Origin: Chloroflexota bacterium
GTDB taxonomy: Bacteria; Chloroflexota; Limnocylindria; P2-11E
DNA: 64,000 nucleotides
Assembly: GCA_005881885.1 (NCBI GenBank)
Contig: VBDX01000133.1
Location: 15,461 to 79,460 of the forward strand
Direction: 5' to 3'
Shown here in pieces: positions 10,837-63,439 of this stretch (position 1 is its first letter; the number at the start of each line of letters is the position of its first letter). A model generated the notes under the pieces. It made no database searches and was not told where the DNA came from. It saw only the letters and a list, made by a program, of their open reading frames with translations. A program made the translations under genes and the position numbers.

Positions 10837-10841
10837 CCCGG

Positions 10842-11300: not shown

Positions 11301-11332
11301 GCGGGAAGGCCATTGCTCACTGGTAGCGCCCT

Positions 11333-27795: not shown

Positions 27796-28868
27796 CGGTC
27801 CTGGGCGCCGGCGGGTTCGTCGGCTCCCGGTTGCTCGAGAGGGCGGCGCACGCCGGTCGGACGGACATCGTGCCGGTGGTCCGCGCCGCGCGCAGCGTCG
27901 GCCGTACGGCGAACCTCGGGATCTCGCATCGGTTCGGCGATGCCTCTCGCGCCGAGACCCTCGAGCGCGCGCTGGCCGGCTGCGAGGCGGTGGTGAACCT
28001 CACCACCGGTGATCCCGCTGACATCCCGCGAACGACGGAGAACATCTACACCGCGGCGCTCGCCGCGGGGGCGCGGCTTCTCGTGCACCTGAGCTCGGCG
28101 TCGGTCTACGGCGCCGTCGAACAGCCGGATCTTCCCGATGACGCGCCACCCTGGCCCGGCCACTGGATGGCATACGCGCGGCAGAAGGGAGTGGCCGAGA
28201 ACTTCTTACGCGAGCGAATGGCCGAGCGCCGCCTGGCGATCGTGGTGCTGCGACCGGGCCTGGTGTGGGGCCCTGGTTCGCCGTGGGTCCTCGGACCCGC
28301 GACCGACCTGCTCCGCGGAGCCGCATTCCTCGCCGGCAGCGGCGGTGGCATCTGCAATCTGATGTACGTCGACGACCTCTTGCGCGGCATCGACGCCGTC
28401 GTCGCACATCGTGAGGCGCCTTCCGGGTTCTATCACGTCGGCGACAACGAAACGATCACTTGGGCCAAGTACTACGGCGCGCTCGCGGCGGGCCTGGGCG
28501 TGGATCCCGAAACGATCCGCGCGGTTCCCAGCGATCGTTACCGCACCGGTCTCCGGGACCGGGTCGATGAGCTCAAGGCCCTACCCATTTACAAGCGCGC
28601 GAGAGCTTGGCTGCCGGTCGAAGCGCGTGCTCAGATCAAACGTCGGCTCGCGCGAGTTCGCGGGCGCGAGCGCCCGATGTCGAGCGCGGCTGACAACGCA
28701 GTCGGGACCCGTGAGATCTGGCACCTGCAGACCACCCGCTACAGGCTGCCGACCACTAAGTTCCGCGCGACGTTCGGTGACCACAACATGGTCCCGTTCC
28801 CGGTCGGCATGGCCGCATCGCTGGCCTGGCTTCGATTCATCGGGATCGGGTTGGACGAGGCGGCCTAG
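27780..28868 (+). CDS. NAD-dependent epimerase/dehydratase (SDR family, sugar-nucleotide modifying)
   Basis: 'IAVLGAGGFVGSRL' Rossmann, YxxxK 'YARQK'. ATG at 27780 overlaps the upstream stop by 16 nt. Confidence 0.8.
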   Translation: MRGGIAVLGAGGFVGSRLLERAAHAGRTDIVPVVRAARSVGRTANLGISHRFGDASRAETLERALAGCEAVVNLTTGDPADIPRTTENIYTAALAAGARLLVHLSSASVYGAVEQPDLPDDAPPWPGHWMAYARQKGVAENFLRERMAERRLAIVVLRPGLVWGPGSPWVLGPATDLLRGAAFLAGSGGGICNLMYVDDLLRGIDAVVAHREAPSGFYHVGDNETITWAKYYGALAAGLGVDPETIRAVPSDRYRTGLRDRVDELKALPIYKRARAWLPVEARAQIKRRLARVRGRERPMSSAADNAVGTREIWHLQTTRYRLPTTKFRATFGDHNMVPFPVGMAASLAWLRFIGIGLDEAA

Positions 28869-28872
28869 AGCT

Positions 28873-30372
28873 GTGGCACCGCTGATCACGATCGTCCGCA
28901 ATTGGTCCGTGCTCGCCGGCGCCCAGGTCGTGTCGAGCCTGATCGCCATGGTCTTCCTGATCGTCGTCTCGCGGACGCTCGGAGAGATCGAGTTCGGCCG
29001 CCTGTATCTCGCGCTAACGCTGACCGCGATCGTCGGGGTCGTCGTCGACTTCGGCCTGAGCCAGGTGGTCACGCGCTCCGTCGCTCGTGATCGAGCGCTC
29101 GCGCGACCGTACTTCCGGCGTGCTGCCTTCATCGTGGGGACGCTGGGTGCCGGTCTCTACGTGCTATTGCTGGGGGCAGCGCTCGCTCTCGGCTACACCG
29201 CCGAGGTGTTGTCGCTCGTGCTGATCCTCGGATTGCTCATGGTCGTCGAGGCGTTCTCCCAGCTTCTCGGCGCGCTCTTCCAGGCGCATGAGCAGATGCT
29301 GATCCCCGCGATCGCGCGCGTTGGTGGTAACGTCATCACGCTCGCGCTCGTCGTCCCGCTGCTGTTCCTTGGACATGGCGCCGCGATGGTGGCGACGGTG
29401 ATCGTCGTTGCCGCGGCGGCGCGCGTCGGATTCCAGGCGATCGCCGCGCGCCGTCTCAGTGGATTCCGGTTGCCCGCCCCGGCGGCACCGTCGTGGCGAG
29501 CGATGCTCCGTGCGGGATTTCCCTTCCTGACCGCGAACGGCTTCGCGCTCTTCGTCGCTCGGGTGGACGTGCTGATCCTGGGTCAGCTCGCCGGTGCGGC
29601 GGCCGTGGGCTGGTACGGCGCCGCCTCGCGGCTTGTCGAGGCCTTCTACTTCCTTCCGGTGCTCCTCACGACGGCGACGTTTCCCGTGCTCTCGCGGCTG
29701 TGGTCAGAAGACCGGAACGAGTTCCACGCGACGGTGCGCAAGACCCTCGACCTGCTGATCGTGCTCATCGTTCCGCTATCGGTCACGTTCTTCATCCTCG
29801 CCGAGAGCATCGTCGGGTCGCTCTTCACACTTCAGTCGTATGCGCCCGCGGTGCCCCTTCTCCGGATCCAGGCGCTGTCGCTGGCCTTGATCTTTGTGGA
29901 TTACCTGCTCACCTGCATCCTGCTCGCGACCGGACGGGAGCGGACGTGGATCACGATCCTCGGCGCGGCGTGTCTTGTGAACCCGGCGGTGAACTTTGTC
30001 CTGATCCCCGCGACGAGCGCCGCCTACGCGAATGGCGCGATCGGCGCCGCGCTCGCGACGTTGCTGACGGAGATCTTCATCCTGATCTGCGCGCTGCGCG
30101 TCGTTGCCGCGGGGACATTCGATGCCGGATCGGTCCGCGTCGCGGTACGCGCCGCGGTGCTGGGTGGGATCCTGGCGACGGCTCTGCTCGCCAGCCGCCC
30201 GCTGGGGATCCCCTGGATGTTGGCGGCCGCGGTCGGCGGCGCGGGCTACCTCGCCGCAGTGGTCCGGCTGGGCTTGCTGCCGCCGGACATCAAGGCCTGG
30301 GTCGGAGGTTTGCTGCGCCGGAGGCGACCGCTCGCGCTATCGACAGTGACCACGGAGCTCGACGCCGCCTGA
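28873..30372 (+). CDS. Polysaccharide/oligosaccharide flippase (Wzx-like, MOP superfamily)
   Basis: ~12 TM segments throughout. GTG start proposed just after the epimerase stop; the track ORF (28411) overlaps the epimerase. Confidence 0.75.
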   Translation: MAPLITIVRNWSVLAGAQVVSSLIAMVFLIVVSRTLGEIEFGRLYLALTLTAIVGVVVDFGLSQVVTRSVARDRALARPYFRRAAFIVGTLGAGLYVLLLGAALALGYTAEVLSLVLILGLLMVVEAFSQLLGALFQAHEQMLIPAIARVGGNVITLALVVPLLFLGHGAAMVATVIVVAAAARVGFQAIAARRLSGFRLPAPAAPSWRAMLRAGFPFLTANGFALFVARVDVLILGQLAGAAAVGWYGAASRLVEAFYFLPVLLTTATFPVLSRLWSEDRNEFHATVRKTLDLLIVLIVPLSVTFFILAESIVGSLFTLQSYAPAVPLLRIQALSLALIFVDYLLTCILLATGRERTWITILGAACLVNPAVNFVLIPATSAAYANGAIGAALATLLTEIFILICALRVVAAGTFDAGSVRVAVRAAVLGGILATALLASRPLGIPWMLAAAVGGAGYLAAVVRLGLLPPDIKAWVGGLLRRRRPLALSTVTTELDAA

Positions 30373-40772: not shown

Positions 40773-41992
40773 TCCGCCGTTCGGTAGTCCACGATGCGAT
40801 CGGCGGAGGCGACCGGGGCCTGCTTCACCTCGTGCCGAGCGACCCACGTGGTGAGCGCCCGAGCTCCGAATTGGGTCCCGGCGACGAACCGGACGAGCGG
40901 CCCGAAGGAGAACCCCGCGGGCGCGCCGAGGAAGTGCAGGCCGGGAACCGATGACTCGAGGCCCGCATCGAGGACCGGATGGCCCTCGACGATGCGCAGC
41001 GCCGCGAGCAGCGAGGGCGACAGGAAGCCGTACTTGCGCACATCGACGCGGTAACCGGTCGCGAGCAGGAGATGGTCGACGCGGCGGGTGGTGGCGTCGT
41101 CCAGCGCGAGCTCGAGATGGCCGTTCACGCGTGTCGCCGCGGTCACGTGCCGCCCGGTGCTGATGGCCATCCCCTCTGATCGCGGCCGAAGCCAGAGGGA
41201 TGCGCCCGGCGCGAGCGAGCGCCGCATCGCCGCGCGTCGCATGGAGCCGGGCAGGTGCCGCAGCAGCATCGGTCGTGCGACGATGTGACTCACACCGGCG
41301 GGACCGACATCCGTCCGGTCGAAGAGGAGACGCCCCAGGAATCCCTTCCGCGTCGCGCGGCCGACCCAGCGGATGCGCGGAGCGCGCATGATCAGCTCGA
41401 CATCCACCCCCGCCTCGTGCAGCAGGACCGCTGACTCGAATGCGCTCTGCCCACCGCCGACGACCGCGACGCGTTGTCCGGCGAAGCGCGCGAGATCGTC
41501 GTGCTCGCTCGAGTGGCTCGCGAACTTCCGCGGTACGTGATCGAACTCGCGCGGACGCCACGCGAAGGCAGCGATGCCCGCGGCGACGACGACGCGTTCG
41601 GATTCGATCGACTCCCCATCATCCAGCAGAACACGGAAGCGACCGTCGGCGCGCTCCACTCGCTCGGCCTGACGCTCGTCGATCGCCGGTCCGGCTAGCT
41701 TTTGGAACCAGTGCCCGTACGCCACGAAATCGGAGAGCGGTACGGGCCGGTCGATGCGTTCCCCGCGGCCACGCTCGAAATCGTCGAGCGTCAGGGCCGC
41801 AGCGGGATCGGCGATATGCGAGGCGGCCCACGGGCTCCGGAGCCGCATGCCTTTCGGCATGTGCCGCATCCAGAACGACATCGGCTTGCCGAGAACGCGT
41901 ACGTTCGCTCCGGCGCCGCGAAGGTGCGCGCTCGCGGCGAGGCCGTAGGGGCCCGCACCGATGACGATGACGTCAGTCTTCTGCCCGCTCAT
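40769..41992 (-). CDS. FAD/NAD(P)-dependent class B flavoprotein monooxygenase (FATGY-motif; N-hydroxylating/FMO-like)
   Basis: 'VIVIGAGPYGLA' FAD motif, second 'VAVVGGGQSAFE' NAD(P) motif, 'LLLATGYRVD' FATGY-type motif. ATG 41992 overlaps the upstream stop (ATGA). Confidence 0.65.
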   Translation of the reverse strand: MSGQKTDVIVIGAGPYGLAASAHLRGAGANVRVLGKPMSFWMRHMPKGMRLRSPWAASHIADPAAALTLDDFERGRGERIDRPVPLSDFVAYGHWFQKLAGPAIDERQAERVERADGRFRVLLDDGESIESERVVVAAGIAAFAWRPREFDHVPRKFASHSSEHDDLARFAGQRVAVVGGGQSAFESAVLLHEAGVDVELIMRAPRIRWVGRATRKGFLGRLLFDRTDVGPAGVSHIVARPMLLRHLPGSMRRAAMRRSLAPGASLWLRPRSEGMAISTGRHVTAATRVNGHLELALDDATTRRVDHLLLATGYRVDVRKYGFLSPSLLAALRIVEGHPVLDAGLESSVPGLHFLGAPAGFSFGPLVRFVAGTQFGARALTTWVARHEVKQAPVASADRIVDYRTAE

Positions 41993-43287
41993 TTTCGCTT
42001 CCACCCCCTGAATGAAGTGCTCCGTGTCTCCCACGAGCGGGTGACGAAGTCGCGAAGCGTGAGCGCATCGACGTCGCCCGTGACGGCGAGCGCGCTACGC
42101 GCCCCGTCCGGCCATCTCCAGATCCGGACCAGCGGTCCGGGCGCCGTCTCGATCTCGCGCAAGATGTCGCCCTCCGACCAGCGCGCCGTCGCGACGTCCA
42201 CGTGCGCGCCGTATGCGCGCGCGTCGTCGGAGATCTCGAACGGCAGACCCTCCTCCGCAAGGAATCGGTGGACCGCGTCGGGCGACCGGTGCGACACGCC
42301 GACGACTGGCGCCCGTGCTGACTCCGTTTCGAAGTCGAACCGGTCCGTGCGCCGGTCACGCCCGTACCAGGGCTCCGCGCTTATCGCGAGCCCGCGAACG
42401 AGCACGGTCGCGTCCCCATCCGCGCCCACCTGGATGCGATACCGGCAGCCGCCGAGGCGCGTCACGCGGAGCGTGAAGCGACTGCGTCGCAGCCACCAGG
42501 ATGCGATCTCGTCGAGGCGCGCGATGAAGATGGCCGGCACGCGGCGGCGCGCCGCACCGAGGACGGCCTGAAGAGCGTTCCCCAGCTCCGGGATGCGCTC
42601 CGGATGAAGCTGGATCGTGAACAGGTCGCCGCGGCCAAAAGTCAGATCGAGCACGTGGCACCACTGGGAGGCCGCGGCGCACTCGGACCAGCGCAGACGC
42701 TCGACGAGCGTCTCGTCGTCCGGGATGGCGACGGGCACATCGACCAGTCCGTCACGAAGTCGTGGGATCACCGCGACGTCGCGCGCCGCGATGGCGGAGT
42801 ACAGCTCGAGTGCCAGCTCGTACCCCCGCGTCGCTTCGCTGCGCAGCGGAAAATGCACCGCCTGGCTGCTGTGGTACCGGAAACCGAGCTCGCGGAGGAC
42901 CTCGAGCGTCGCCTGGTTGTAGCGGAGGTACGGTCCGCGGAAGCCCGTCGGCTCGAGGCCGGCGCGCGTGAACAGCTCCATCGCCCGAGCGATGGTGTCG
43001 TGCTGCCGCTGGCGGTCCATCGCGGCGTGATCGCCGTGGACGAGGCCGTGCACCGGGATCTCCGCGCCCCGCGCGGCGAATCGCTGGAGCACCTCCGGGT
43101 GCCGGGCGAGGACGCACGCCGTCGTCGGCCAGGTCGGCCGGATGCCGAGCTCGGACGTGAGCGCGTCGTAGCGCTCGAGGCGCTGCACCATCGCTCCAGG
43201 GGTGGCCCCGAAGCGGGCGAGCACCTTCGCCGTGCGTGCCGCCGAACCGGCGGGGCCACGTCCGCGCAGGCTCATCGCGAGGCTCAT
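41989..43287 (-). CDS. Polysaccharide deacetylase (CE4 family) with a C-terminal extension
   Basis: 'IPVHGLVHGDH' and NodB-like motifs. ATG 43287 overlaps the GT4 stop (ATGA). Confidence 0.6.
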   Translation of the reverse strand: MSLAMSLRGRGPAGSAARTAKVLARFGATPGAMVQRLERYDALTSELGIRPTWPTTACVLARHPEVLQRFAARGAEIPVHGLVHGDHAAMDRQRQHDTIARAMELFTRAGLEPTGFRGPYLRYNQATLEVLRELGFRYHSSQAVHFPLRSEATRGYELALELYSAIAARDVAVIPRLRDGLVDVPVAIPDDETLVERLRWSECAAASQWCHVLDLTFGRGDLFTIQLHPERIPELGNALQAVLGAARRRVPAIFIARLDEIASWWLRRSRFTLRVTRLGGCRYRIQVGADGDATVLVRGLAISAEPWYGRDRRTDRFDFETESARAPVVGVSHRSPDAVHRFLAEEGLPFEISDDARAYGAHVDVATARWSEGDILREIETAPGPLVRIWRWPDGARSALAVTGDVDALTLRDFVTRSWETRSTSFRGWKRK

Positions 43288-44510
43288 GCGCGCTCCGCTC
43301 CGTCCACGGCGACGGGAACCGATCGCCGTAGCGTGTCCGCGGCGGCGAGGTGCTCCACCAGTTCGACGTAGCGCTTGGCCTGGCGCACCCAGCGGTATGG
43401 CTCGTTGACCTCGGTCGCCCGCCGGACGAGCCGCTGACGCAGCTCGGGATCCTCGTAGAGCTCGAGGATCGCGCGCGCGAGGTCCTGCTCGTTGCCCGAC
43501 TCGAACAGCTGGAAGCATTCGTCGCCGAAGTACGCCTCCACCGCGCGGGTCCGCGACGTGACGACAGGCTTCTGCATCGCGATGAGGTCGTACATCTTGT
43601 TGCTGTGCGTCAGGTCGAAGCACGCGTCCCTCCTGATCGCGACGACGCCGACGTCCGCCTCCGCGATCCTCGGGAGCAGCTCGTCCATGGGGACCCACCC
43701 ACGGCTGAACCAGACCAGATCCTCGACACCGAGCTCCTTCGCGAGGGCTTCGATGGATTCGCGACGCGGCCCGTCGCCGTAGATGCGAAGGAGGAGGCCG
43801 GGGATGCGGTGGCGGAGCCGCGCGATCGCGCGCACGACCAGGTCGAGGCCGTACATGTCGTCGATGGTTCCGTGGAAGACGAGCACGAAGTGCCCGCGAT
43901 CCCTCTTCACCGCGGAATACCGCCGCGGGTCGAACCGCTGATCATCGAAGGAGTTGAGGATGACCCCGATCTTCTCTTTGCGCGCTCCGCGCTCCGCGAA
44001 CCGCTCGCGCATCTGCTCAGTGCAGGTGATGGCCGCGTCGGCGAATCGAATGCTCACCTGCTCGCAGAGACCGAGCGCGCGGACCAGTGTGTGCTGCGCT
44101 GGCAGCTTGTACTTCAGCGAGAAGAATTCGGGCATGCATTCGTGGAGGTCCAAAAGGACGCGAGCGCCGAGCAGCCGTGGCACGAGCGCCGCGAAGACTA
44201 GGCAGTCAGGCAGCGAGTTCACCTGGACCACGTCGTAGCGCTCCCGCAAGTGCAGCCTCGTGGCGCGCAGCGCGGCGAGGACGAAGAAGGCGCCGTACTC
44301 GAGGACGTAGCTGATCTTCCCGCGACGCTGACGCTCGATCGGCAGGCGGTACACGGTGAGGCGGCCGCTCCGTTCATGCCGTGGCTGGTCGCCCCAGCGC
44401 TGGCAGATGAGGTCGACCTCATGACCCGCGGCGATGAGCGCCTTGACCTCGCGCGTTAAGCGCGCGTCGAACGGGAAGACGCCTTGGCGGATGACGCAGA
44501 TCCGGGCCAC
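43284..44510 (-). CDS. Glycosyltransferase family 4
   Basis: GT-B fold ('RICVIRQGVFPFDARL ... FHGTIDDMYGLDLVV ... NKMYDLIAMQKPVV'). GTG start overlaps the Wzy-like TAG (TAGTG). Confidence 0.75.
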   Translation of the reverse strand: MARICVIRQGVFPFDARLTREVKALIAAGHEVDLICQRWGDQPRHERSGRLTVYRLPIERQRRGKISYVLEYGAFFVLAALRATRLHLRERYDVVQVNSLPDCLVFAALVPRLLGARVLLDLHECMPEFFSLKYKLPAQHTLVRALGLCEQVSIRFADAAITCTEQMRERFAERGARKEKIGVILNSFDDQRFDPRRYSAVKRDRGHFVLVFHGTIDDMYGLDLVVRAIARLRHRIPGLLLRIYGDGPRRESIEALAKELGVEDLVWFSRGWVPMDELLPRIAEADVGVVAIRRDACFDLTHSNKMYDLIAMQKPVVTSRTRAVEAYFGDECFQLFESGNEQDLARAILELYEDPELRQRLVRRATEVNEPYRWVRQAKRYVELVEHLAAADTLRRSVPVAVDGAERA

Positions 44511-46039
44511 TAGCGCACCTGCTCGACCGCGGGGGATTCGAGCGATGCGGAGCGAACCAGGAACGCGCAGATCCCGAGGGCCGTCCCGAGGACGATCATC
44601 GACCGGCTGAACGTCATTCCCTGGTCGACGGAGGAGAAGATGACCTGACAGATAACGATCGCCAGGGGAAGCGCCGCGAGCCAGCGAAGCTCCCCGTCGC
44701 GCTGCTCTCGGACGAAGAGAGCCGAGCACACGAGAACCGCGCGCGCGACCAGGAACCAGAGCGCGAGCGCCGCGAAGGGACCCGCCTTCAGCCAGAGCCA
44801 GAGCAGCGCGTTGTGGGTGATGTTGCGCCAGTACGGCAACCCGTAGAGCGGCGGTGGCTGCTGCTGAAAGAGGTACTCCTGGCCAAGGCCGACGCCGGTC
44901 AGCGGCAGCTGACGCACGGTGTACGCGATATTCCGGTTCTCGATGACGCGCCACGCGTTCGAGCTCTGATCGCGCGTGCTGCTGGACGACGGCTCGACCA
45001 CCGCGCGCACCGCCCTCACCGGCTCGGCGATGGGCCCGCTCGAGTCCCAAAAGAGCGCTCCGTACGCGGCGAGGCCGACCGCCGCGACCCCGGCGAGCAC
45101 GAGCGCTCGGCGTCGGCGGACGAAGAACGTGAGCAAGGTGATGACGGCGAAGACCGCGGCCATCGCGATGAAGGCGGTCCGCCGCTGGTCGAGAAGCAGA
45201 GCGACGAGGATCACCGGCTGCAGCCCAAGCAGGAAATAACCGAACCTCGTGCGCACCCGCAGCGCCACCATCGCGATGGCGAGGGCGATGGCGGCGTCGA
45301 AGAAGACGATGTCCTCATGGCTCGTCACGGAGCCGGCGTCATATGGTGTCCAAGCGGGGCCCTCCTGGTAGTTACCGATCCCCTGGAGCGCCTTGACGGC
45401 GACAAGCGCAACGAACATCCACACGATGACCATGAGCTGGCGGCGGTCCTCGACGAGGTTCGCCGCGAGGAAGTAGAGGGCGCACAGCTCGATCGGCGCG
45501 CGCACCTCGTTCAACCCCGCCTCGAGGTCCACTCCGCCGCGGGCGACACCGATCAGGCCGCCGAGCGCGAAGGCGGCTCCGTACCCGACGATCGCCCAGC
45601 CGAACGGACCCATTCGCAACGCCTCGCGCCGTCCGGTCAGCCGATGGAAGACGAGACTCGCGCCGGTGAGCAGCATCAAGAGTTCCGCGAGGCTCAGACG
45701 GATCGGCAGGGGCGTGTAGGCGGACACATTCTGGAAGAGATGCGACTGCGCGGTGAGCGGGGCGAGGCCCGCGATCGCGAACTGCTCGAAGAGCAGCGCC
45801 GCGCCGAACAGCAGGTACACGCCGGTGACGGGGTGCGCGCCGACCATGAGTACGACGAGCGCGCCGACCACCGGAGCGAGCGCGAGCACGTCGCCGCCGG
45901 TGGCGATGATCACGGCGGCGTACGCGCCTGCGAATGCCACGGTCAGTACGAAACCGACGATCGCGCCGCGGCGCGCGCGCCACGCGTACGCATCGCTCGT
46001 CGGCCAGGCCCGCGCGCCAGTCTGGAGCACGGCGCTCAT
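44510..46039 (-). CDS. O-antigen ligase / Wzy-like polysaccharide polymerase (multi-TM)
   Basis: ~12 TM helices with a large periplasmic loop; Wzy_C-like. ATG 46039. Confidence 0.7.
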   Translation of the reverse strand: MSAVLQTGARAWPTSDAYAWRARRGAIVGFVLTVAFAGAYAAVIIATGGDVLALAPVVGALVVLMVGAHPVTGVYLLFGAALLFEQFAIAGLAPLTAQSHLFQNVSAYTPLPIRLSLAELLMLLTGASLVFHRLTGRREALRMGPFGWAIVGYGAAFALGGLIGVARGGVDLEAGLNEVRAPIELCALYFLAANLVEDRRQLMVIVWMFVALVAVKALQGIGNYQEGPAWTPYDAGSVTSHEDIVFFDAAIALAIAMVALRVRTRFGYFLLGLQPVILVALLLDQRRTAFIAMAAVFAVITLLTFFVRRRRALVLAGVAAVGLAAYGALFWDSSGPIAEPVRAVRAVVEPSSSSTRDQSSNAWRVIENRNIAYTVRQLPLTGVGLGQEYLFQQQPPPLYGLPYWRNITHNALLWLWLKAGPFAALALWFLVARAVLVCSALFVREQRDGELRWLAALPLAIVICQVIFSSVDQGMTFSRSMIVLGTALGICAFLVRSASLESPAVEQVR

Positions 46040-46188
46040 CGCGAGCCGACGAGTAGCGCGAACTGGGCGGCGACCATCGCCGCCGCGAAGGTCGCGGCGA
46101 CCCAGGGGCGCGCGACGCGAGATCCGCCCATGGCGCCGAGACCCGCGCAGAGCACGAAGAGGAGCACCGCCAAGGCCGTGTAGGTCAC
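46036..46188 (-). CDS. Putative 50-aa two-TM micro-protein wedged between the CpsD-like and Wzy-like genes
   Basis: GTG start overlaps the CpsD-like TGA (GTGA). Its TGA overlaps the Wzy ATG (ATGA). Product: VTYTALAVLLFVLCAGLGAMGGSRVARPWVAAATFAAAMVAAQFALLVGSR (two hydrophobic helices, basic loop). Confidence 0.3.
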   Translation of the reverse strand: MTYTALAVLLFVLCAGLGAMGGSRVARPWVAATFAAAMVAAQFALLVGSR

Positions 46189-46811
46189 GCGCGTGCCGCG
46201 AGGAGCGCCGCGGGGACGTCGACCGAGGATCCTCTGGCTCGGTTCAGAACGATGTAGGGCGGCGCCGCGAGGCTGAGCTTGCCGAGGGCCTGCTGGATCA
46301 GGGGTAGCGGTGTGGCTCCTTCGCGCAGTACGACGAAGAGCTGGTCGACCAGCGCGGCCCAGGGCAGCACGAACGTTTCGCCGGCAAGCACCGGCGGAAG
46401 GTCCACGATGACCGTCTCGAAGGAGACGGCCTCCTTGGCCACGAACGATGCGAGCCCCCGGAGGGTCGGCCTCGCGCCCATGCCGTCGCCGAGTGGCAGG
46501 AAGGCAACGCGCGAGGGGGCGTACCGGCGGATGCAGGCCGCGGCGTCGGCCCGGTCCGCAAGTAGCTCGGCCAGCCCAACGCTCGATTCGAGACGAGCGT
46601 CGCGTGTCAGCGAGGGATGGATCCAGTTCGCGTCGACGAGCAGCACGCTGCCCCTGCGCATCGCCGCGAGCGAAAGCGCCGTGCCGAGCGCGAGCGTGCT
46701 GACGCCCTCGCCGAGCAGGGCACTGGTGAAACCGATTGTGCGAAAGCCCATCGCATCGACGCGGCTGGCCAGCCCGTCGAACGTGGCCATGAGGCTCGCC
46801 GGTGCGCTCAT
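46185..46811 (-). CDS. CpsD/Wzc-type (BY-kinase/MinD-like) ATPase domain protein with a degenerate Walker A (GEGVST)
   Basis: 'FTSALLGEGVSTLALGTALSLA' in place of the canonical 'SxxPGEGKST'. Walker A' 'VLLVDANWIHPSL'. Walker B 'VIVDLPPVL'. ATG overlaps the Wzz-like stop (ATGA). Confidence 0.65.
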   Translation of the reverse strand: MSAPASLMATFDGLASRVDAMGFRTIGFTSALLGEGVSTLALGTALSLAAMRRGSVLLVDANWIHPSLTRDARLESSVGLAELLADRADAAACIRRYAPSRVAFLPLGDGMGARPTLRGLASFVAKEAVSFETVIVDLPPVLAGETFVLPWAALVDQLFVVLREGATPLPLIQQALGKLSLAAPPYIVLNRARGSSVDVPAALLAARA

Positions 46812-47848
46812 CCGCTCACCTCTCCGTTTCGCGCGCCGCCGTCCGCGAATGCGATCGCGGCGAGCGAGGTGCGCAGGTCACCAGGACTCGCGCCGCCACC
46901 CGCTCGCGTCACGCGGGGTACGGCCGCGAAGAGCCGGGCGGGTGCGAGCCGGCTGACATCGGCGGGTCCTGATACGTGCGCCGGAAGCAGCGTGCCGATG
47001 ACCACGAGGAGCGCGGCGAGGGCGCACCCCGCGGCGATCGCGACGGCGCCGATCATCGCGGCGGATCGAGTACCGCCTCGCGGCGAGGTCTCGACCTGTG
47101 GCTGGTCGACGACCTGGAACTCCATGCCGCTCACTGACAGGATGGCGGGCGCGAGGGCCGCTTGGTTGATGCGGCCGCGCAGGTCGCCGAGGCGGATCTG
47201 CGCGTAGTCGAGAGTCAGCCGGAGTTGATCCTTCAGATGCTGCTCGATATCGCTGAGCGCTCCGGGATGGCTCGCGTCGAACTCGTCGAGCGCGCGCTGG
47301 GCATCGAGCGCCTGGGCCTGGGCGACCTGGAGCTGCTTCTGGTAAAGCGTGTTCGTGATCGTCGTGAAGGTGGTACTCGCCTGCGCCACCCGATCCGCTC
47401 GAACAGCGAGGATGGCGTTGACCATCTCCGGTCCGAGCGGCGGATCGTGGGCCGCGAACGAGACGGTCAGCAGATTGTTCCCGTGTGTCTGGACGCGGAA
47501 GCTCTTCTGGACACCGGCCAGGAATTTCGTCTCGTCCGGCGCGGCTGCGAGCGCCGCGCGCAGGGAGGTCTGCCGGACCACGTCGCGAAGGAACTCCTTC
47601 GTCTGTAACAGCTGATTCAGCAGGTCAGCCTGCTGGGAAGCGGCCGTCTGAATGACCGTCGCATTCGGGTCGTCAGGGCTCGTCGTCGCCAATTCCGGCG
47701 AGGCCCGGAGCACCCAGATCGTGGCCTCGGACTCGAAGGTCGTCGCGTACTCCGTGTAGGCGGCGACGATCCCGGCTCCCCAGATGATCGCCAGGACCGC
47801 CCCGAGCAGCCAGCGATAGCGATGAGCAGTGGTGAGGTACGGCCGCAT
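46808..47848 (-). CDS. Polysaccharide co-polymerase (Wzz/CpsC-like chain-length determinant)
   Basis: N-terminal and C-terminal TM helices flanking a ~250-aa coiled-coil-rich periplasmic domain. Confidence 0.7.
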   Translation of the reverse strand: MRPYLTTAHRYRWLLGAVLAIIWGAGIVAAYTEYATTFESEATIWVLRASPELATTSPDDPNATVIQTAASQQADLLNQLLQTKEFLRDVVRQTSLRAALAAAPDETKFLAGVQKSFRVQTHGNNLLTVSFAAHDPPLGPEMVNAILAVRADRVAQASTTFTTITNTLYQKQLQVAQAQALDAQRALDEFDASHPGALSDIEQHLKDQLRLTLDYAQIRLGDLRGRINQAALAPAILSVSGMEFQVVDQPQVETSPRGGTRSAAMIGAVAIAAGCALAALLVVIGTLLPAHVSGPADVSRLAPARLFAAVPRVTRAGGGASPGDLRTSLAAIAFADGGARNGEVSG

Positions 47849-50503: not shown

Positions 50504-50532
50504 ATTGAGCGCCGATTGACGGTGCATTGAAG
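50504..50532 (+). promoter_or_regulatory. Triple direct-repeat element ATTGAGC-gccg-ATTGACG-gtgc-ATTGAAG upstream of the sugar-transferase operon
   Basis: Exact 11-bp periodicity; the same heptamer family as at 26552, 53360, 54456 and 61354. Confidence 0.55.
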
Positions 50533-50621
50533 AGCGCCCGCCAGGGCCCGGCCCGACCGTGGGGAGCGTCGGGAAAACGTCATGGTCAGGCCGTACCGAT
50601 CCTCAATGGTGCGGGGCTTCC

Positions 50622-51395
50622 ATGCTCCTCGTGGCAGCGGACCCGATCGCTCTCCAGTCCACGATGCCAGCCCGTGCGGACGGCGCACGGCTTTCCGATT
50701 GGTCGGTTGCGGGAGCGCAGGCCGACGCACCTGCGCTCTCCGCCGTTGCTCAGGCACTCGGGGCGGCGGCCCGTCGCGAGACCTTCTACGCATTCTCCAA
50801 GCGAGCGCTCGACCTGATGATCGCCGCCGTGCTCCTTCTGGGACTCGTGCCGCTTTTCGCGCTGGTCGCTATCGCGATCCGCTTCGACGGACCCGGGCCC
50901 ATCTTCTACCGTGGCGAGCGGCTCGGTCGCTACGGCAGCCGCTTCAGTGTCGTCAAGTTCCGATCGATGCGCGCCGACGCGGATCCGAACTCGCATTGCG
51001 CATTCCTCCGGAGCCTGATGCAGCAGGGCACAACGTGCACCGTTTACAAGGTCCCCGACGATCCCCGGATCACGCGGGTCGGCGCCATCCTTCGCAAGAC
51101 GAGCCTCGACGAGCTGCCGCAGCTCTGGAATGTGCTCCGCGGCGAGATGAGCCTCGTCGGTCCCCGCCCGGACGTCCCTTACGCCGTCGCGGAGTACAGC
51201 GACTGGATCCACCGCCGGCTTCTCGTGAAGCCGGGGATCACGGGCTTGTGGCAGGTCAGCGGTCGCAGCCGCCTGAGTCCCCTCGAGATGTACCGCCTCG
51301 ATGTGGCGTACGTCGCCGCGGCGTCACTGGCGTTCGACCTGCGGATCCTCCTGCGCACCATCCCGGTCGTCCTCACCCGGGACGGAGCGGCCTAG
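50622..51395 (+). CDS. Polyprenyl-phosphate sugar phosphotransferase (bacterial sugar transferase, WbaP/CpsE C-domain type; initiating enzyme)
   Basis: '[18 protein letters not shown] ... [10 protein letters not shown] ... [21 protein letters not shown]'. Start uncertain (ATG 50622 or 50664). Confidence 0.8.
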
Positions 51396-54455: not shown

Positions 54456-54484
54456 ATTGAGCGCTCGTTGACGCTGGGTTGACC
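54456..54484 (+). promoter_or_regulatory. Triple direct-repeat element ATTGAGC-gctc-GTTGACG-ctgg-GTTGACC upstream of the 979-aa secreted protein
   Basis: Exact 11-bp periodicity. It overlaps the TTG used as the ORF start in the track, which argues for a later true start. Confidence 0.55.
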
Positions 54485-54580
54485 GGAATGGGCAAAGAGC
54501 GGCGCTATCGCGAGGCGCGTTCCGAAAGGTCATGCCGTCGCCGCAGCGCTCCTCAATCCGCGACGTGTTTGATCCCACCC

Positions 54581-57418: not shown

Positions 57419-57596
57419 GGCGGCGAGCACAGCCAGGCACGCTCGGAATGAAGCCTGAGTGAGAGGACGCCGACGAGTTCAGCGGCCCAGAGCCAGCGCC
57501 TGGCTGGAAGCTCGCCTTGTTCTCCGGGTAGAGCGTATCGACGATCCCCTCACTTTGGCCCTCGGCCGAACGCCTGTATCCTTGGCTCTACGCGGG

Positions 57597-58334
57597 GTGG
57601 GTGCTGCCGAGAACGATGCCGGTCAGCGCGTCGGGATCCTCGTTGTCGATGACGACCGGGAGCTCGTCGACCTTCTTGCCTTCCTTATGGAGCAATCCGG
57701 GCTGACCCCGCTCTGCGCGACCGAACCCGTCGCCGCGCTCGAGCTCTTCGACAAGGAAGACCCGTACGTGGCGGTCGTCGATCTCAACCTCAAGCCGTGG
57801 GATGGCTTCGAGCTGCTTGCGGAGCTCCGCCGGCGCAGCGCGCGGATCCCGATCCTCGTCCTCACCGGGCGCGGCAGCGAGGACGACAAGGTGCGAGCGC
57901 TCGACATGGGCGCGGATGACTACGTCGTCAAGCCTTTCTTGCACCGCGAGCTTGTGGCCCGGATCCGAGCGCTTGCACGGCGCGCGCAGATGGACCGCAA
58001 TGTCATCGAGCCGACCATCCTGGAGGCGGGTCCGCTCCGCCTCGACCTCAAAGAGCGTGGGCTCCAGATCGACGGAGCCGACGTCCGCCTCACCGGGACC
58101 GAGTTCCGGCTCCTGGAATACCTGATGCGCCACCTCGACAGCGTCGTCTCCACGACCTCGCTGGCGCGGCACGTGTGGGGCTATGACGACCCCCCGGCGC
58201 GTGACGTGGTGCGAGTGACGGTGCACCGGCTGCGCCGCAAGCTTGGCGACGATGGCGAGAGCCCGCGTTTCGTCCACACCGTTCCGGGCGTCGGACTCAA
58301 GCTTCGGTCCACACCGTCTCAACGGGCGAGCTAG
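57597..58334 (+). CDS. OmpR/PhoB-family response regulator (receiver + winged-helix)
   Basis: 'GILVVDDDREL ... VVDLNLKPWDGFELL ... YVVKPF' receiver domain, then an OmpR-type wHTH. GTG start ~57597; the track ORF (57459) has a GC-rich extension. Confidence 0.8.
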   Translation: MGAAENDAGQRVGILVVDDDRELVDLLAFLMEQSGLTPLCATEPVAALELFDKEDPYVAVVDLNLKPWDGFELLAELRRRSARIPILVLTGRGSEDDKVRALDMGADDYVVKPFLHRELVARIRALARRAQMDRNVIEPTILEAGPLRLDLKERGLQIDGADVRLTGTEFRLLEYLMRHLDSVVSTTSLARHVWGYDDPPARDVVRVTVHRLRRKLGDDGESPRFVHTVPGVGLKLRSTPSQRAS

Positions 58335-58468
58335 CCCCCGCTGTAACGGCATTGTGTCGGCTGCCGGGCCGGTGTAACGCCTTTGTTCCCTAACGCTTAA
58401 CGCATCGAGGCATCCCATTTGCGGTTTCTACAGGCCGTGGCTCGGTGAGCCGCGACTCGCATGGGGGT

Positions 58469-59281
58469 ATGGATTTCATGATCAAGATCCTGCTGGTCGA
58501 AGACGATCTCGACATGCTCGACCTGACCGCGTATGTCCTTCGGAGAGAGCGATTCGTCGTGATGGAGGCCTCGGACGGCGCAGCGGCCCTGCGGCGATGG
58601 AGAGCCGACCGTCCGGACCTCGTCGTCCTCGACCTTGGTCTGCCGAGCCTCGATGGGTTCGAGGTCCTGCGTCGCATCCGTGCCGACGACGAGACGCCGA
58701 TACTCGTCCTCACCGGTCGGCGCGACGCCCAGGACATTTTGCGGGTCTTCAACCTGGGATCCGATGACTTCCTCGCCAAGCCGTTCGAGTTCAAGGAGCT
58801 CATCGCACGGATTCGCGCGATCCTGCGCCGCGTCCAAACATCCCCGAAGGAGAACACCGAGCCCCGCGTCGAAGTCGACGGGCTCAAGCTCGACCCCGAG
58901 GCATACGAGGTGGCGTGGAGAGATGCCTACGTCCGACTCACGCCCACCGAGTTCCGCATCCTCTACCTCCTCGTGACGAATGCCGGACACGTGGTCTCCG
59001 CCAATCGCCTCTACACGTACGTGTGGGGCAGCGAAGGCGGCGACGCGAACGCGTTGCGATCGCACATCAGCCACCTGCGGCGAAAGCTCGAGACGACGGG
59101 GGAAACGCCGGGCACGATCTCGTCGGTGCCGGCGATCGGCTACGTCTACCGCAAAGTCGCGCAGCCCGCGACCGTCCCGGTGGAGACGACCGCGATCGCA
59201 CCATCGGCACCGAGTTCGAAAGACGACCGGGTCCCGACCCCTACGGCGACGGCGCAGGTCGCTCCCGCGGCATCCGGCTAG
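58469..59281 (+). CDS. OmpR/PhoB-family response regulator (second, adjacent)
   Basis: 'KILLVEDDLDML ... LVVLDLGLPSLDGFEVL ... FLAKPF' receiver + wHTH, with a C-terminal Pro/Thr/Ala tail. No histidine kinase nearby. Confidence 0.8.
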   Translation: MDFMIKILLVEDDLDMLDLTAYVLRRERFVVMEASDGAAALRRWRADRPDLVVLDLGLPSLDGFEVLRRIRADDETPILVLTGRRDAQDILRVFNLGSDDFLAKPFEFKELIARIRAILRRVQTSPKENTEPRVEVDGLKLDPEAYEVAWRDAYVRLTPTEFRILYLLVTNAGHVVSANRLYTYVWGSEGGDANALRSHISHLRRKLETTGETPGTISSVPAIGYVYRKVAQPATVPVETTAIAPSAPSSKDDRVPTPTATAQVAPAASG

Positions 59282-63419: not shown

Positions 63420-63439
63420 CAGGCGCCGATCGTGTGCGA

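What the first reader, a model, noticed from the sequence alone, without database searches (positions are those of the whole stretch)
46185..46811. CpsD/BY-kinase-like ATPase with the Walker-A lysine replaced (GEGVST): probable pseudo-kinase partner of the Wzz-like co-polymerase
The domain order and motifs of a Gram-positive-type split BY-kinase are all present (Walker A', Walker B 'VIVDLPPVL'; upstream CpsC/Wzz-like TM modulator, ATGA-coupled). However, the P-loop reads 'LLGEGVSTLALG' instead of the canonical 'GEGKS(T)'.

The invariant lysine that contacts the beta/gamma-phosphates is a valine, and the C-terminal tyrosine cluster typical of BY-kinases is absent (the tail is 'GSSVDVPAALLAARA'). 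This points to a non-phosphorylating scaffolding/ATP-independent role.
Basis: partly seen in the sequence, partly recalled or inferred. Interest (0 to 1): 0.55.

Follow-up and report, generated by a model that had tools for sequence, protein, structure and literature searches.

The report
Lysine-less tyrosine-kinase-like scaffold in polysaccharide locus
This gene encodes a degenerate, probably catalytically dead copy of a bacterial tyrosine kinase that sits beside the chain-length protein and polymerase of a sugar-polymer pathway in an uncultured soil Chloroflexota bacterium; such "pseudokinases" were described recently, so this is a new example, not a new principle.

Summary
ORF 46185-46811 (-) encodes a 208-aa protein with a BY-kinase catalytic-domain fold (VpsO E 3.5e-22 by profile; Foldseek TM 0.75-0.79). 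Its Walker-A lysine is Val37 (GEGVST) and it has no C-terminal Tyr cluster.

It is not an artefact. The identical protein occurs on at least 23 independently assembled contigs. All 111 aligned homologues carry V, A or T at that site, and dN/dS is about 0.3.

- Walker A' is also degenerate (DxDxR becomes D-A-N-W-I).
- Both arginines of the ExxRxxR oligomerisation motif are lost.
- The other phosphate/Mg ligands (G34, E35, G36, S38, T39, D60, D137) are nearly invariant.

The gene lies in a translationally coupled module conserved in about 20 Limnocylindria/Chloroflexota loci. The order is PCP-2b-like protein, pseudokinase, an unannotated 50-aa two-helix membrane ORF, then Wzy-like polymerase. 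This module sits inside a complete Wzx/Wzy polysaccharide locus that has no canonical kinase.

Best reading: a BY pseudokinase acting as the cytoplasmic scaffold of its PCP without tyrosine phosphorylation, like EcpK/EpsV and HfsB/HfsA (J Bacteriol 2025). "ATP-independent" is not supported, because nucleotide/Mg binding may persist.

It is a new member of a known kind, of modest interest.

The parts
46185..46811 (-). Lys-less BY-kinase-like protein (BY pseudokinase), 208 aa
   Evidence: ORF. NCBIfam hits are all far below cutoff: TIGR03018 55.8 bits against 230.65, TIGR01007 18.8 against 108. No Pfam hit even at E<=10. Profile vs PDB finds VpsO at 3.5e-22, then BceF, CapB, Etk and Wzc. AF2 pLDDT is 87, and Foldseek TM is 0.75-0.79 to BY-kinase domains. 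dN/dS is 0.27-0.35.
46695..46712 (-). Degenerate Walker A: G34-E35-G36-V37-S38-T39, with Val at the catalytic Lys position
   Evidence: Column counts in 111 homologues: G108, E111, G111, V81/A17/T13, S105/T6, T111. The segment aligns on GEGK(T/S)T of VpsO and CapB.
46614..46646 (-). Degenerate Walker A': V56-L-L-V-D60-A-N62-W63-I64-H-P66
   Evidence: D60 is invariant. N62 is 110/111 where the canonical residue is Asp. W63 is 110/111. Position 64 is L/I/V where the canonical residue is Arg (alignment to VpsO LLIDCDLRKP).
46392..46415 (-). Retained Walker B: T133-V-I-V-D137-L-P-P140
   Evidence: D137 and L138 are invariant. P139 and P140 are 110/111.
46808..47848 (-). PCP-2b-like co-polymerase: 346 aa, two TM helices (~11-33 and ~261-296), with a ~50-60 aa cytoplasmic C-terminal tail
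   Evidence: NCBIfam TIGR03007 chain-length determinant scores 1.3e-14, below cutoff. No Pfam or PDB sequence hit. TM segments. ATGA overlap with the pseudokinase start. Adjacent and coupled in all related loci.
46811..46984 (-). Cytoplasmic tail of the PCP (residues ~289-346) with conserved 'GPADVxRLAPxxLFAxVPxV' and 'DLRxxLAAxAF' segments. Candidate docking element for the pseudokinase
   Evidence: Alignment of 20 PCP orthologues. P, L and F of the tail are invariant in the chimera alignment. In the AF2 chimera only residues 27-32 reach pLDDT >=50 and form a beta-strand. The Foldseek alignment to the CapAB chimeras lengthens from 204 to 223 columns (2ved_B) and from 197 to 215 (3bfv_A). This is weak evidence.
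46036..46188 (-). Unannotated conserved small ORF of 50 aa (MTYTALAVLLFVLCAGLGAMGGSRVARPWVAATFAAAMVAAQFALLVGSR), a predicted two-helix membrane hairpin. Its GTG start overlaps the pseudokinase stop (GTGA), and its stop overlaps the Wzy start (ATGA)
   Evidence: A 47-51 aa ORF with the same overlaps and hydrophobic pattern is present in every related Chloroflexota locus in which both flanking genes were detected. Public gene callers called it in L001, L003, L004 and L028-L031. dN/dS is 0.28-0.69. Junction sequences.
44510..46039 (-). Wzy-like repeat-unit polymerase: 509 aa, multi-TM
   Evidence: Pfam Wzy_C scores 2.3e-14, above cutoff. NCBIfam Wzy_EPS scores 1.2e-12, below cutoff. At least 9 hydrophobic segments.
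43284..44510 (-). GT4 glycosyltransferase (408 aa), 1-nt overlap with the Wzy stop
   Evidence: Pfam Glyco_trans_4_4 and Glycos_transf_1. Gene boundaries from L028 and junction.
41989..43287 (-). Polysaccharide deacetylase-family protein (432 aa)
   Evidence: Pfam Polysacc_deac_1 at 4.2e-11. Same position in related loci.
50520..51395 (+). Initiating phosphoglycosyl transferase (Bac_transf) of the same locus
   Evidence: Pfam PF02397 at 6.3e-63.
28363..30372 (+). Wzx-type flippase (Polysacc_synt) of the same locus
   Evidence: Pfam PF01943 at 2.6e-30.

Best explanation
The 208-aa protein is a bacterial-tyrosine (BY) pseudokinase. It keeps the P-loop fold of a CpsD/CapB/Wzc-type kinase domain but can no longer phosphorylate tyrosine.

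It is made in fixed stoichiometry with three partners through overlapping stop/start codons:
- a two-TM polysaccharide co-polymerase (PCP-2b-like);
- a 50-aa membrane hairpin protein;
- a Wzy-like polymerase.

**Proposed mechanism**
- Inferred: the pseudokinase binds the conserved cytoplasmic C-terminal tail of the PCP, as CapB binds CapA and EcpK binds EpsV.
- It then acts as the cytoplasmic scaffold that stabilises or organises PCP oligomers during Wzy-dependent polymerisation.
- No phosphorylation/dephosphorylation cycle is involved.
- Inferred, about 50%: because the rest of the phosphate/Mg2+ site is almost invariant, the pocket probably still binds Mg-nucleotide as a non-hydrolysed structural or allosteric ligand. 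This would be a natural counterpart of Wzc K540M.

**Shown:** homology and fold, motif losses, family-wide conservation, purifying selection, conserved gene order and coupling.

**Inferred:** physical interaction, oligomerisation, nucleotide binding, lack of activity.
For: **Fold and homology**
- Profile vs PDB: VpsO 3.5e-22, BceF 8e-13, CapB 1e-8, Wzc/Etk about 1e-6. MinD/FlhG are much weaker.
- AF2 pLDDT 87. Foldseek top 50 are all BY-kinase domains.

**Loss of catalytic and substrate features, family-wide**
- Lys becomes V, A or T in 111/111.
- The second Walker-A' Asp becomes Asn in 110/111, and the Walker-A' Arg becomes L/I/V.
- The ExxRxxR arginines become D12 (99/111) and A15 (111/111).
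- There is 0 or 1 Tyr in the last 25 aa in 111/111.

**A functional gene, not decay**
- dN/dS is 0.27-0.35.
- Identical on at least 23 contigs.
- 15 columns are invariant.

**Partner and context**
- ATGA coupling to a PCP whose tail is conserved.
- The order PCP, pseudokinase, small ORF, Wzy is conserved in about 20 loci in two paralogous clades.
- The locus is a complete Wzx/Wzy locus with Wzx, Bac_transf, GTs and Wzy.
- The window holds no paralogue and no canonical BY-kinase.

**Precedent**
- GumC has been called a 'pseudo-BY-kinase' (PMC9800525).

**Retained nucleotide site**
- G34, E35, G36, S38, T39, D60, D137 and N190 are conserved in at least 97% of members.
- K540M Wzc still binds ATP-Mg and oligomerises (PMC9800525).
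- PDB entries of Wzc K540M variants carry MgADP.
Against: - No biochemical data exist. Inactivity is inferred from motifs only.
- Interaction with the PCP tail is not demonstrated. In the AF2 chimera the tail was mostly below pLDDT 50.
- The oligomerisation motif is remodelled, so a Wzc-like octameric ring is not assured.
- The strong conservation of the remaining P-loop could instead mean residual enzymatic activity of another kind.
- A canonical BY-kinase and phosphatase might exist elsewhere in the genome. A Y_phosphatase3 gene lies 16 kb away.
- Direct sequence relationship to EcpK or HfsB was not tested.
Confidence: 0.75

Rival explanations
1. Active enzyme with a non-canonical P-loop. 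The positive charge normally given by the Walker-A Lys would come from elsewhere. Candidates are a conserved Arg of the protein itself (R114 replaces the Asn of the canonical 'NP' motif; R163 is another) or an Arg of the PCP tail acting in trans. The complex would then still hydrolyse ATP or transfer phosphate, in a 'WNK-like' relocation.
For: - The remaining Mg/phosphate ligands and the glycine loop are nearly invariant.
- Conserved basic residues are R17, R24, R114, R163, R173 and R191.
- The PCP tail carries conserved Arg in 'xRLAP' and 'DLR'.
- The CapA tail is known to complete the CapB nucleotide site via Phe221 (PMC3795738).
- An invariant Phe exists in this PCP tail.
Against: - There is no Tyr cluster to phosphorylate.
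- The second Walker-A' Asp is Asn and the Walker-A' Arg is lost.
- Position 37 drifts among V, A and T with no compensating pattern detected.
- No coordinates were available to place any Arg near the phosphates.
- K-to-M, A or I substitutions abolish ATPase activity in Wzc and ExoP (PMC9800525).
Confidence: 0.1
2. Nucleotide-free inert scaffold, the first reader's 'ATP-independent' version. The pocket binds nothing, and motif conservation is purely structural.
For: - EcpK functions with no recognisable Walker motifs at all (PMC12004946).
- Loss of Lys usually lowers nucleotide affinity.
Against: - Unlike EcpK, this family keeps GEGxST, D60, D137 and N190 at 97-100% while the rest of the protein diverges to about 45% identity.
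- A pocket without a ligand would be expected to drift.
Confidence: 0.3
3. Artefact or decaying pseudogene: a sequencing or assembly error, or a dead BY-kinase copy.
For: None beyond the missing lysine.
Against: - The identical protein occurs on at least 23 contigs from different assemblies.
- The Val codon GTC is at least 2 changes from a Lys codon.
- 111 homologues all lack the Lys.
- dN/dS is about 0.3.
- Translational coupling is conserved on both sides.
Confidence: 0.01
4. A MinD/ParA/Mrp-type positioning ATPase unrelated to polysaccharide chain-length control, as the automatic names 'Mrp family chromosome partitioning ATPase' imply.
For: Source annotations, and weak MinD/FlhG matches (E 5e-5 to 6e-3).
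Against: - BY-kinase domains score 15-17 orders of magnitude better than MinD/FlhG.
- No deviant Walker-A signature lysine is present.
- The genomic context is invariably PCP and Wzy.
Confidence: 0.02

Closest known systems
EcpK/EpsV of Myxococcus xanthus (BY pseudokinase + PCP-2 lacking a kinase domain; PMC12004946)
   Same: - Stand-alone BYK-fold protein without catalytic residues or Tyr tail.
- Encoded in a Wzx/Wzy locus.
- Proposed to bind the cytoplasmic C-terminus of its PCP and act as a phosphorylation-independent scaffold.
   Different: - EcpK has none of the Walker A, A' or B motifs. This protein keeps the glycine loop, the Ser/Thr, the first A' Asp and Walker B.
- The phylum differs (Chloroflexota versus Myxococcota).
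- No OPX/Wza was seen here.
- An extra conserved 50-aa membrane ORF is present.
- Direct sequence relationship was not tested.
HfsB/HfsA of Caulobacter crescentus, and the pairs listed from Cuthbertson et al. 2009 (e.g. Syntrophus SYN_00779/80), as cited in PMC12004946
   Same: - A split PCP-2 plus a kinase-dead BYK-like partner.
- Lys-less relatives found here in Deltaproteobacteria (L022, L023, L027; GEGAST) are probably of this type.
   Different: - Those are from Gram-negative bacteria and have OPX neighbours.
- Only 24-36% identity to this protein.
CapA/CapB (S. aureus) and CpsC/CpsD: Firmicutes-type split BY-kinases (PDB 2ved, 3bfv, 4jlv, 4jmp)
   Same: - Same gene order (modulator then kinase-like protein), size and fold.
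- The modulator has a C-terminal cytoplasmic tail.
- The CapB K55M mutant and the inactive paralogue CapB1 still bind ADP-Mg (PMC3795738).
   Different: - CapB has GAGKST, DGDMR, ExxRxxR and a Tyr cluster, and autophosphorylates.
- All four of those features are missing here.
VpsO kinase domain (Vibrio cholerae, PDB 6u1q)
   Same: Best sequence and structure match: E 3.5e-22, TM 0.75, 25% identity.
   Different: VpsO is an active PCP-2a kinase with GEGKTT, DCDLRKP and a Y-cluster.
E. coli Wzc K540M (engineered Walker-A mutant; PDB 3la6, 7nhr, 9exo)
   Same: A Lys-less P-loop in the same fold. The mutant is kinase- and ATPase-dead, yet it binds Mg-nucleotide and forms stable octamers (PMC9800525). 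It is a useful mechanistic model for this natural variant.
   Different: - It is a laboratory mutant of a fused PCP-2a.
- It retains the oligomerisation motif and the Tyr tail.
GumC of Xanthomonas campestris ('pseudo-BY-kinase', PMC9800525)
   Same: A BYK-like cytosolic domain without a Y-cluster. It modulates chain length without phosphorylation.
   Different: It is fused to the PCP in one polypeptide, and it comes from the Proteobacteria.

Membership tests
BY-kinase (CpsD/CapB/Wzc catalytic domain) | P-loop (SIMIBI-type) fold of the BY-kinase catalytic domain | tested here: met
   AF2 pLDDT 87. Foldseek TM 0.72-0.79 to VpsO, Wzc, CapB, BceF and Etk. HMM E 3.5e-22.
BY-kinase (CpsD/CapB/Wzc catalytic domain) | Walker A GxxGxGK[ST] with catalytic Lys | tested here: not met
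   The sequence is GEGVST. The Lys position is V81/A17/T13 in 111 homologues, and there is no Lys in columns 28-44.
BY-kinase (CpsD/CapB/Wzc catalytic domain) | Walker A' hhhhDxDxR | tested here: not met
   The sequence is VLLVD-A-N-W-I. The second Asp is Asn in 110/111 and the Arg is L/I/V.
BY-kinase (CpsD/CapB/Wzc catalytic domain) | Walker B hhhhDxxP | tested here: met
   The sequence is VIVDLPP, and D137 is invariant.
BY-kinase (CpsD/CapB/Wzc catalytic domain) | C-terminal tyrosine cluster (autophosphorylation substrate) | tested here: not met
   0 Tyr in the last 25 aa here. Across the family the count is 0 in 95 members and 1 in 16.
BY-kinase (CpsD/CapB/Wzc catalytic domain) | ExxRxxR oligomerisation motif on helix alpha2 | tested here: not met
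   Aligned on CapB 'EKFRGIR', the family reads [R/H]-x-F-D12-G-L-A15. Both Arg residues are replaced.
BY-kinase (CpsD/CapB/Wzc catalytic domain) | Curated model cut-offs (NCBIfam TIGR01007, TIGR03018, TIGR03029; Pfam) | tested here: not met
   Scores against cut-offs: 18.8 vs 108; 55.8 vs 230.65; 31.3 vs 313.8. No Pfam family even at E<=10.
BY-kinase (CpsD/CapB/Wzc catalytic domain) | Tyr autophosphorylation / ATPase activity | not testable with these tools
   Needs biochemistry.
BY pseudokinase / phosphorylation-independent bipartite PCP-2 (EcpK/EpsV, HfsB/HfsA) | BYK-like fold lacking catalytic residues and the Tyr-rich tail | tested here: met
   Definition taken from PMC12004946.
BY pseudokinase / phosphorylation-independent bipartite PCP-2 (EcpK/EpsV, HfsB/HfsA) | Cognate PCP-2 without a kinase domain, in a Wzx/Wzy-dependent locus | tested here: met
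   The adjacent, ATGA-coupled 346-aa protein has two TM helices and matches TIGR03007 at 1.3e-14. The locus also holds Wzx, Wzy, Bac_transf and GTs. The arrangement is conserved in about 20 loci.
BY pseudokinase / phosphorylation-independent bipartite PCP-2 (EcpK/EpsV, HfsB/HfsA) | Direct binding of the pseudokinase to the cytoplasmic C-terminus of the PCP | tested here: inconclusive
   The PCP tail is conserved. In the AF2 chimera only a short strand (residues 28-31) docks, at pLDDT around 50. The Foldseek alignment to CapAB lengthens by about 18 columns.
BY pseudokinase / phosphorylation-independent bipartite PCP-2 (EcpK/EpsV, HfsB/HfsA) | Required for polysaccharide synthesis | not testable with these tools
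   The organism is uncultured (all relatives are MAGs or metagenome contigs).
BY pseudokinase / phosphorylation-independent bipartite PCP-2 (EcpK/EpsV, HfsB/HfsA) | Sequence orthology to EcpK or HfsB | not tested
Different motif retention suggests independent degeneration.
MinD/ParA/Mrp ATPases (name given by automatic annotation) | Deviant Walker A KGGxGK[ST] and best similarity to MinD/ParA/Mrp | tested here: not met
   No such motif is present. MinD/FlhG score E 5e-5 to 6e-3, against 3.5e-22 for BY-kinase.

The most novel reading that the evidence does not exclude
The Lys-less but otherwise intact P-loop could be a ligand-gated assembly switch, not a dead relic. Mg-ATP would bind without hydrolysis, perhaps capped by the invariant Phe of the PCP tail, or with a positive charge supplied by R114/R163 or a tail Arg. 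This binding would drive assembly and disassembly of a PCP, pseudokinase, 50-aa protein and Wzy complex. Chain-length control would then be coupled to cellular energy state instead of to a phosphorylation timer. The conserved 50-aa hairpin protein would be a previously unrecognised core subunit linking co-polymerase and polymerase.
Probability: 0.15. Interest if true: 0.65.

Novelty: new member of a known kind. Interest (0 to 1): 0.33.

Why it matters
This finding extends the recently defined phosphorylation-independent PCP-2 / BY-pseudokinase class to Chloroflexota (Ca. Limnocylindria), an abundant uncultured soil lineage.

In the sample examined, Lys-less and Tyr-tail-less BYK-like proteins form many sequence clusters across phyla: 88 of the 141 best 50%-identity representatives. 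That sample is biased towards Lys-less proteins by the query. Even so, automatic names such as 'tyrosine-protein kinase' or 'Mrp ATPase' are misleading for a sizeable part of the superfamily.

The family is a natural counterpart of the K540M and K55M laboratory mutants. It also has a clean four-gene, translationally coupled module that includes an unannotated 50-aa membrane protein. That module could be reconstituted heterologously to ask how a PCP works without a phosphorylation cycle.

Tried and rejected
- **Pfam** on the 208-aa protein, the PCP and the small ORF at E<=10 found nothing useful.
- **PADLOC defence models** gave no hits, so a defence-system reading was dropped.
- **phmmer of the PCP against PDB** gave no hit.
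- **Search for a paralogue or canonical BY-kinase in the window**, using the family HMM against all ORFs of at least 80 aa, found none.
I re-ran it with an MSA covering only the kinase-like part. The tail was then mostly low confidence, so docking remains inconclusive.
- **Natural PCP-tail fusions** were sought among the longer homologues (P0049, P0087, P0094, P0097, P0122). These carry a TPR-like N-terminal extension, not a PCP tail.
- **A charge-swapped oligomerisation interface** (D12 pairing with R173 or E145) was considered. The partner positions are basic or acidic in canonical kinases too (alignments), so there is no support.
- **R24 as a 'signature-lysine' substitute** was considered. 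It lies at the far end of strand beta1, so it was rejected on topology.
- **The Y_phosphatase3 gene at 62730-63476 as a cognate phosphatase** was considered. It is 16 kb away, it is neither the LMW-PTP nor the PHP type, and it does not appear within the 10 kb fetched on each side of the relative L032. I did not adopt it.
- **Literature search** for Limnocylindria plus exopolysaccharide returned nothing.
Full report
**1. Observation**

The ORF 46185..46811 on the minus strand is real and encodes 208 aa.
- It has the codon-position GC pattern of the neighbouring genes, with GC3 0.83.
- A GGAGAGG Shine-Dalgarno-like sequence lies upstream, and its ATG overlaps the stop of the upstream ORF as ATGA.
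- Residues 34-39 read G-E-G-V-S-T. Val37 is GTC (46701-46703), at least two substitutions from any Lys codon.
- phmmer and profile alignments to solved BY-kinase domains place Val37 exactly on the Walker-A lysine of VpsO (GEGKTT), BceF (GIGKS) and CapB (GAGKST). It also aligns with the Met of the CapB K55M crystal construct.
- Walker B (VIVD137LPP) is present.
- The C-terminal tail has no tyrosine. The protein has only Y97 and Y186.

Walker A' is not intact: canonical hhhhDxDxR (VpsO LLIDCDLRKP) reads VLLVD60-A-N62-W63-I64-H-P.

**2. Not an artefact: a conserved Lys-less family**

- The identical protein is encoded on at least 23 contigs from independent metagenome assemblies.
- A word-indexed search returned 208 homologues. 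All 120 listed have GEG[V/A/T][S/T]T.
- In an alignment of 111 full-length members (45-88% identity to the query) the Lys position is V81/A17/T13, and no Lys occurs anywhere in columns 28-44.
- The surrounding phosphate/Mg-binding residues are almost invariant:

| Residue | Count out of 111 |
|---|---|
| G34 | 108 |
| E35 | 111 |
| G36 | 111 |
| S38 | 105 (+6 Thr) |
| T39 | 111 |
| D60 | 111 |
| D137 | 111 |
| N190 | 110 |

- The catalytic or substrate features are replaced family-wide:
  - N62 replaces the second Walker-A' Asp (110/111).
  - A hydrophobic residue replaces the Walker-A' Arg.
  - D12 (99/111) and A15 (111/111) replace the two arginines of the ExxRxxR oligomerisation motif, by alignment on CapB 'EKFRGIR'.
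  - There is 0-1 Tyr in the last 25 residues in every member.
- Pairwise dN/dS against ten orthologues of the closer clade is 0.27-0.35 at dS around 0.9-1.1 (0.52 for the most divergent, L014), so the gene is under purifying selection.

**3. What it is related to**

- No Pfam model matches even at E<=10.
- NCBIfam BY-kinase models match far below their cut-offs. The best is TIGR03018 at 55.8 bits against 230.65.
- A family profile finds BY-kinase catalytic domains in the PDB: VpsO 3.5e-22, BceF 8e-13, CapB 1e-8, Etk/Wzc about 1e-6. MinD/FlhG score only 5e-5 to 6e-3.
- The AF2 model is confident (pLDDT 87, pTM 0.85) with a disordered tail at 195-208.
- Its 50 best Foldseek matches in the PDB are all BY-kinase domains, with TM 0.72-0.79.
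- An exhaustive profile search of 1.84 billion representatives gave 48,608 hits at E<=1e-3. Only 18 were at E<=1e-30, followed by a plateau of general BY-kinase relatives. The family is therefore a discrete clade.

**4. Organism and distribution**

- A scan of one genome per GTDB species found the family almost only in soil Chloroflexota / Candidatus Limnocylindria MAGs.
  - Two exceptions are bins labelled Udaeobacter and Bathyarchaeia, which are probably mis-binned.
  - There are two paralogous clades, at about 60-65% and about 40% identity to the query. Both can occur in one MAG.
- The window is chromosomal. It carries EF-G, a class A PBP, MutS2, PheST, IF3 and ThrRS.
- More distant Lys-less relatives exist in several other groups:
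  - Deltaproteobacteria (GEGAST);
  - Planctomycetes;
  - Vicinamibacteria;
  - Microcoleus, where the domain (GEGTST) is fused in a 745-aa PCP-2a-like protein.
- Among the 141 best 50%-identity representatives with an alignable P-loop, 88 lack the Lys (V40, R24, A11, T10, S2, C1).
  - 87 of those 88 have at most 1 Tyr in the tail.
  - By contrast, 24 of the 53 Lys-containing ones have at least 3 Tyr.
  - They fall into several separate sequence clusters.
  - The sample is biased towards Lys-less sequences by the query profile. It still shows that the state is common and is coupled to loss of the Tyr cluster.

**5. Context**

The gene sits in a complete Wzx/Wzy-type polysaccharide locus spanning about 26.5-52 kb:
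- Wzx flippase, 28363-30372;
- several glycosyltransferases (GT4-family, GT2 and a PMT_2-type);
- GH5-like and GH39-like proteins;
- a polysaccharide deacetylase;
- the Bac_transf initiating enzyme, 50520-51395;
- a Wzy_C polymerase, 44510-46039.

No paralogue or canonical BY-kinase is present in the window. No OPX/Wza was seen among the genes scanned.

The upstream 346-aa protein has these features:
- two TM segments, at about 11-33 and about 261-296;
- a partial match to the TIGR03007 chain-length-determinant model at 1.3e-14;
- a cytoplasmic tail with conserved 'GPADVxRLAPxxLFAxVPxV' and 'DLRxxLAAxAF' segments, with P, L and F invariant.

From memory, the first segment resembles the 'EDIExxLGxPVLGxIP' activator segment of CapA, CpsC and the Wzc linker. 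A Deltaproteobacterial PCP in L027 ends '...EDVERYLGRQVFASIPEL'.

In every Chloroflexota locus with both flanks available, the order is PCP, pseudokinase, a 47-51-aa ORF, then Wzy. In most of these loci a GT4 follows, and in the closer (~60% identity) clade a deacetylase too.

**6. The small ORF**

The small ORF (window 46036-46188, minus strand) was below the first ORF listing's length cut-off.
- Its GTG overlaps the pseudokinase stop (GTGA) and its stop overlaps the Wzy ATG (ATGA).
- The same overlaps, length and two-hydrophobic-helix pattern recur in both paralogous clades.
- Within the closer (~60% identity) clade there is a conserved 'xIYTAL...C.G.G...AMV.AQ' signature.
- dN/dS is 0.28-0.69.
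- Public gene callers called it on several contigs.
- It has no family match. The best is DUF4229 at E 0.37.

**7. Mechanism**

*Shown:*
- BY-kinase fold;
- loss of the Lys, the second A' Asp, the A' Arg, both ExxRxxR arginines and the Tyr substrate;
- retention of the rest of the Mg/phosphate site;
- purifying selection;
- conserved translational coupling to the PCP, the small membrane protein and Wzy.

*Inferred:*
- The protein cannot autophosphorylate. It serves as the cytoplasmic scaffold of a bipartite PCP-2, binding the PCP tail as CapB binds CapA and as modelled for EcpK/EpsV and HfsB/HfsA (PMC12004946).
- I tested the docking with an AF2 model of a PCP-tail-pseudokinase chimera. The MSA was allowed only for the kinase-like part.
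  - Most of the tail was below pLDDT 50.
  - Only residues 27-32 (the 'VPRV' region) were at or above 50 and formed a beta-strand.
  - The Foldseek alignment to the CapAB chimeras lengthened from 204 to 223 columns (2ved_B) and from 197 to 215 (3bfv_A).
  - This is consistent with CapA-like strand addition but remains inconclusive.
  - EcpK has no recognisable Walker motifs (PMC12004946), whereas this family keeps everything except the catalytic side chains.
  - Wzc K540M is ATPase-dead but closes and oligomerises on ATP-Mg or Mg2+ (PMC9800525).
  - PDB entries of K540M variants contain MgADP.
  - Inactive CapB1 binds ADP-Mg with CapA Phe221 stacked on the base (PMC3795738).
  - I therefore rate retained, non-hydrolytic nucleotide/Mg binding at about 50%.

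**8. Rivals**

- **Artefact or pseudogene.** Refuted.
- **MinD/ParA/Mrp-type ATPase.** Rejected on similarity and context.
- **Active enzyme with a relocated positive charge.**
  - Candidates are R114, which replaces the Asn of the canonical 'NP' motif, R163, or a tail Arg.
  - This cannot be excluded without coordinates or biochemistry.
  - It is unlikely, given the missing Tyr cluster and the missing second A' Asp.

**9. Comparison with the known, and novelty**

- EcpK/EpsV and HfsB/HfsA;
- examples from Cuthbertson et al. 2009, such as Syntrophus SYN_00779/80 (PMC12004946);
- GumC, called a 'pseudo-BY-kinase' (PMC9800525).

The window protein fails five sequence-defined features of a BY-kinase, namely the Walker-A Lys, Walker A', the Tyr cluster, the ExxRxxR motif and the curated model cut-offs. 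It meets the testable features of the pseudokinase class.

It differs from EcpK in four ways:
- it retains the P-loop scaffold and Walker B;
- it comes from a different phylum;
- its module includes the extra 50-aa membrane protein;
- a sub-lineage carries a 100-175-aa TPR-like N-terminal extension.

I found no literature on Limnocylindria exopolysaccharide systems.

**Verdict:** a new member of a known kind, of modest interest (0.33). Two of its details are not.

Noticed in passing
window 46036-46188 (-): An unannotated 50-aa ORF with two hydrophobic helices lies between the pseudokinase and Wzy. Its GTG start overlaps the pseudokinase stop (GTGA) and its stop overlaps the Wzy start (ATGA). 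It is conserved in length, overlaps and pattern in all related Chloroflexota loci in which both flanking genes were detected, and matches no known family.
   Followed up: partly
P0049, P0087, P0094, P0097, P0122; locus L033 1989-2984: A sub-lineage of the Lys-less family carries a conserved 100-175-aa N-terminal extension with weak TPR similarity (E 0.05). In L033 it still sits between the PCP and the small ORF/Wzy.
   Followed up: partly
representatives P0121-P0267: Many other BYK-like clusters lack the Walker-A Lys (GEGR, GEGV, GEGT or GEGA). Several of these clusters share a C-terminal 'P-x-W-[LIV]-x-R' tail instead of a Tyr cluster. Some clusters keep the Lys but also lack the Tyr tail.
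   Followed up: partly
L022, L023, L027 (Deltaproteobacteria MAGs), about 7800-13500: A Lys-less BYK-like gene (GEGAST, tail PIPPWIYQRL) is followed by a 582-aa protein, a lipoprotein-like 344-aa protein, a 198-aa protein, and a PCP ending '...EDVERYLGRQVFASIPEL'. This may be the XrtA/PEP-CTERM-type EPS locus to which the best NCBIfam hits point.
   Followed up: no
L026 2388-4625 (Microcoleus sp.): A 745-aa fused PCP-2a-like protein whose kinase-like domain has GEGTST (no Lys) but keeps D-A-D in Walker A'.
   Followed up: no
window 62730-63476 (-): A Y_phosphatase3-family protein tyrosine phosphatase (PF13350, 1.6e-44) lies 16 kb from the pseudokinase. It is neither the usual LMW-PTP nor the PHP type. 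Any link to the locus is unknown.
   Followed up: no
window 57459-58334 (+) and 58394-59281 (+): Two tandem OmpR-type response regulators (Response_reg + Trans_reg_C) lie downstream of the polysaccharide locus. No histidine kinase was found among the genes I scanned.
   Followed up: no
window 54461-57418 (+): A 985-aa protein combines a DMFA2_C domain (N,N-dimethylformamidase beta-subunit-like, 6.7e-107) with Ig-like domains. A homologous 1106-aa protein flanks the related loci L001 and L002.
   Followed up: no
L006 (Ca. Udaeobacter bin) and L012 (Ca. Bathyarchaeia bin): Loci with the full Chloroflexota-type module (60-63% identity, same gene order) are binned in a verrucomicrobial MAG and an archaeal MAG. 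This is most likely mis-binning, not horizontal transfer.
   Followed up: no
P0074 (346 aa): A database protein fuses the pseudokinase directly to the N-terminal part of the Wzy-like protein and skips the small ORF. It is probably a frameshift or assembly artefact in that contig.
   Followed up: no
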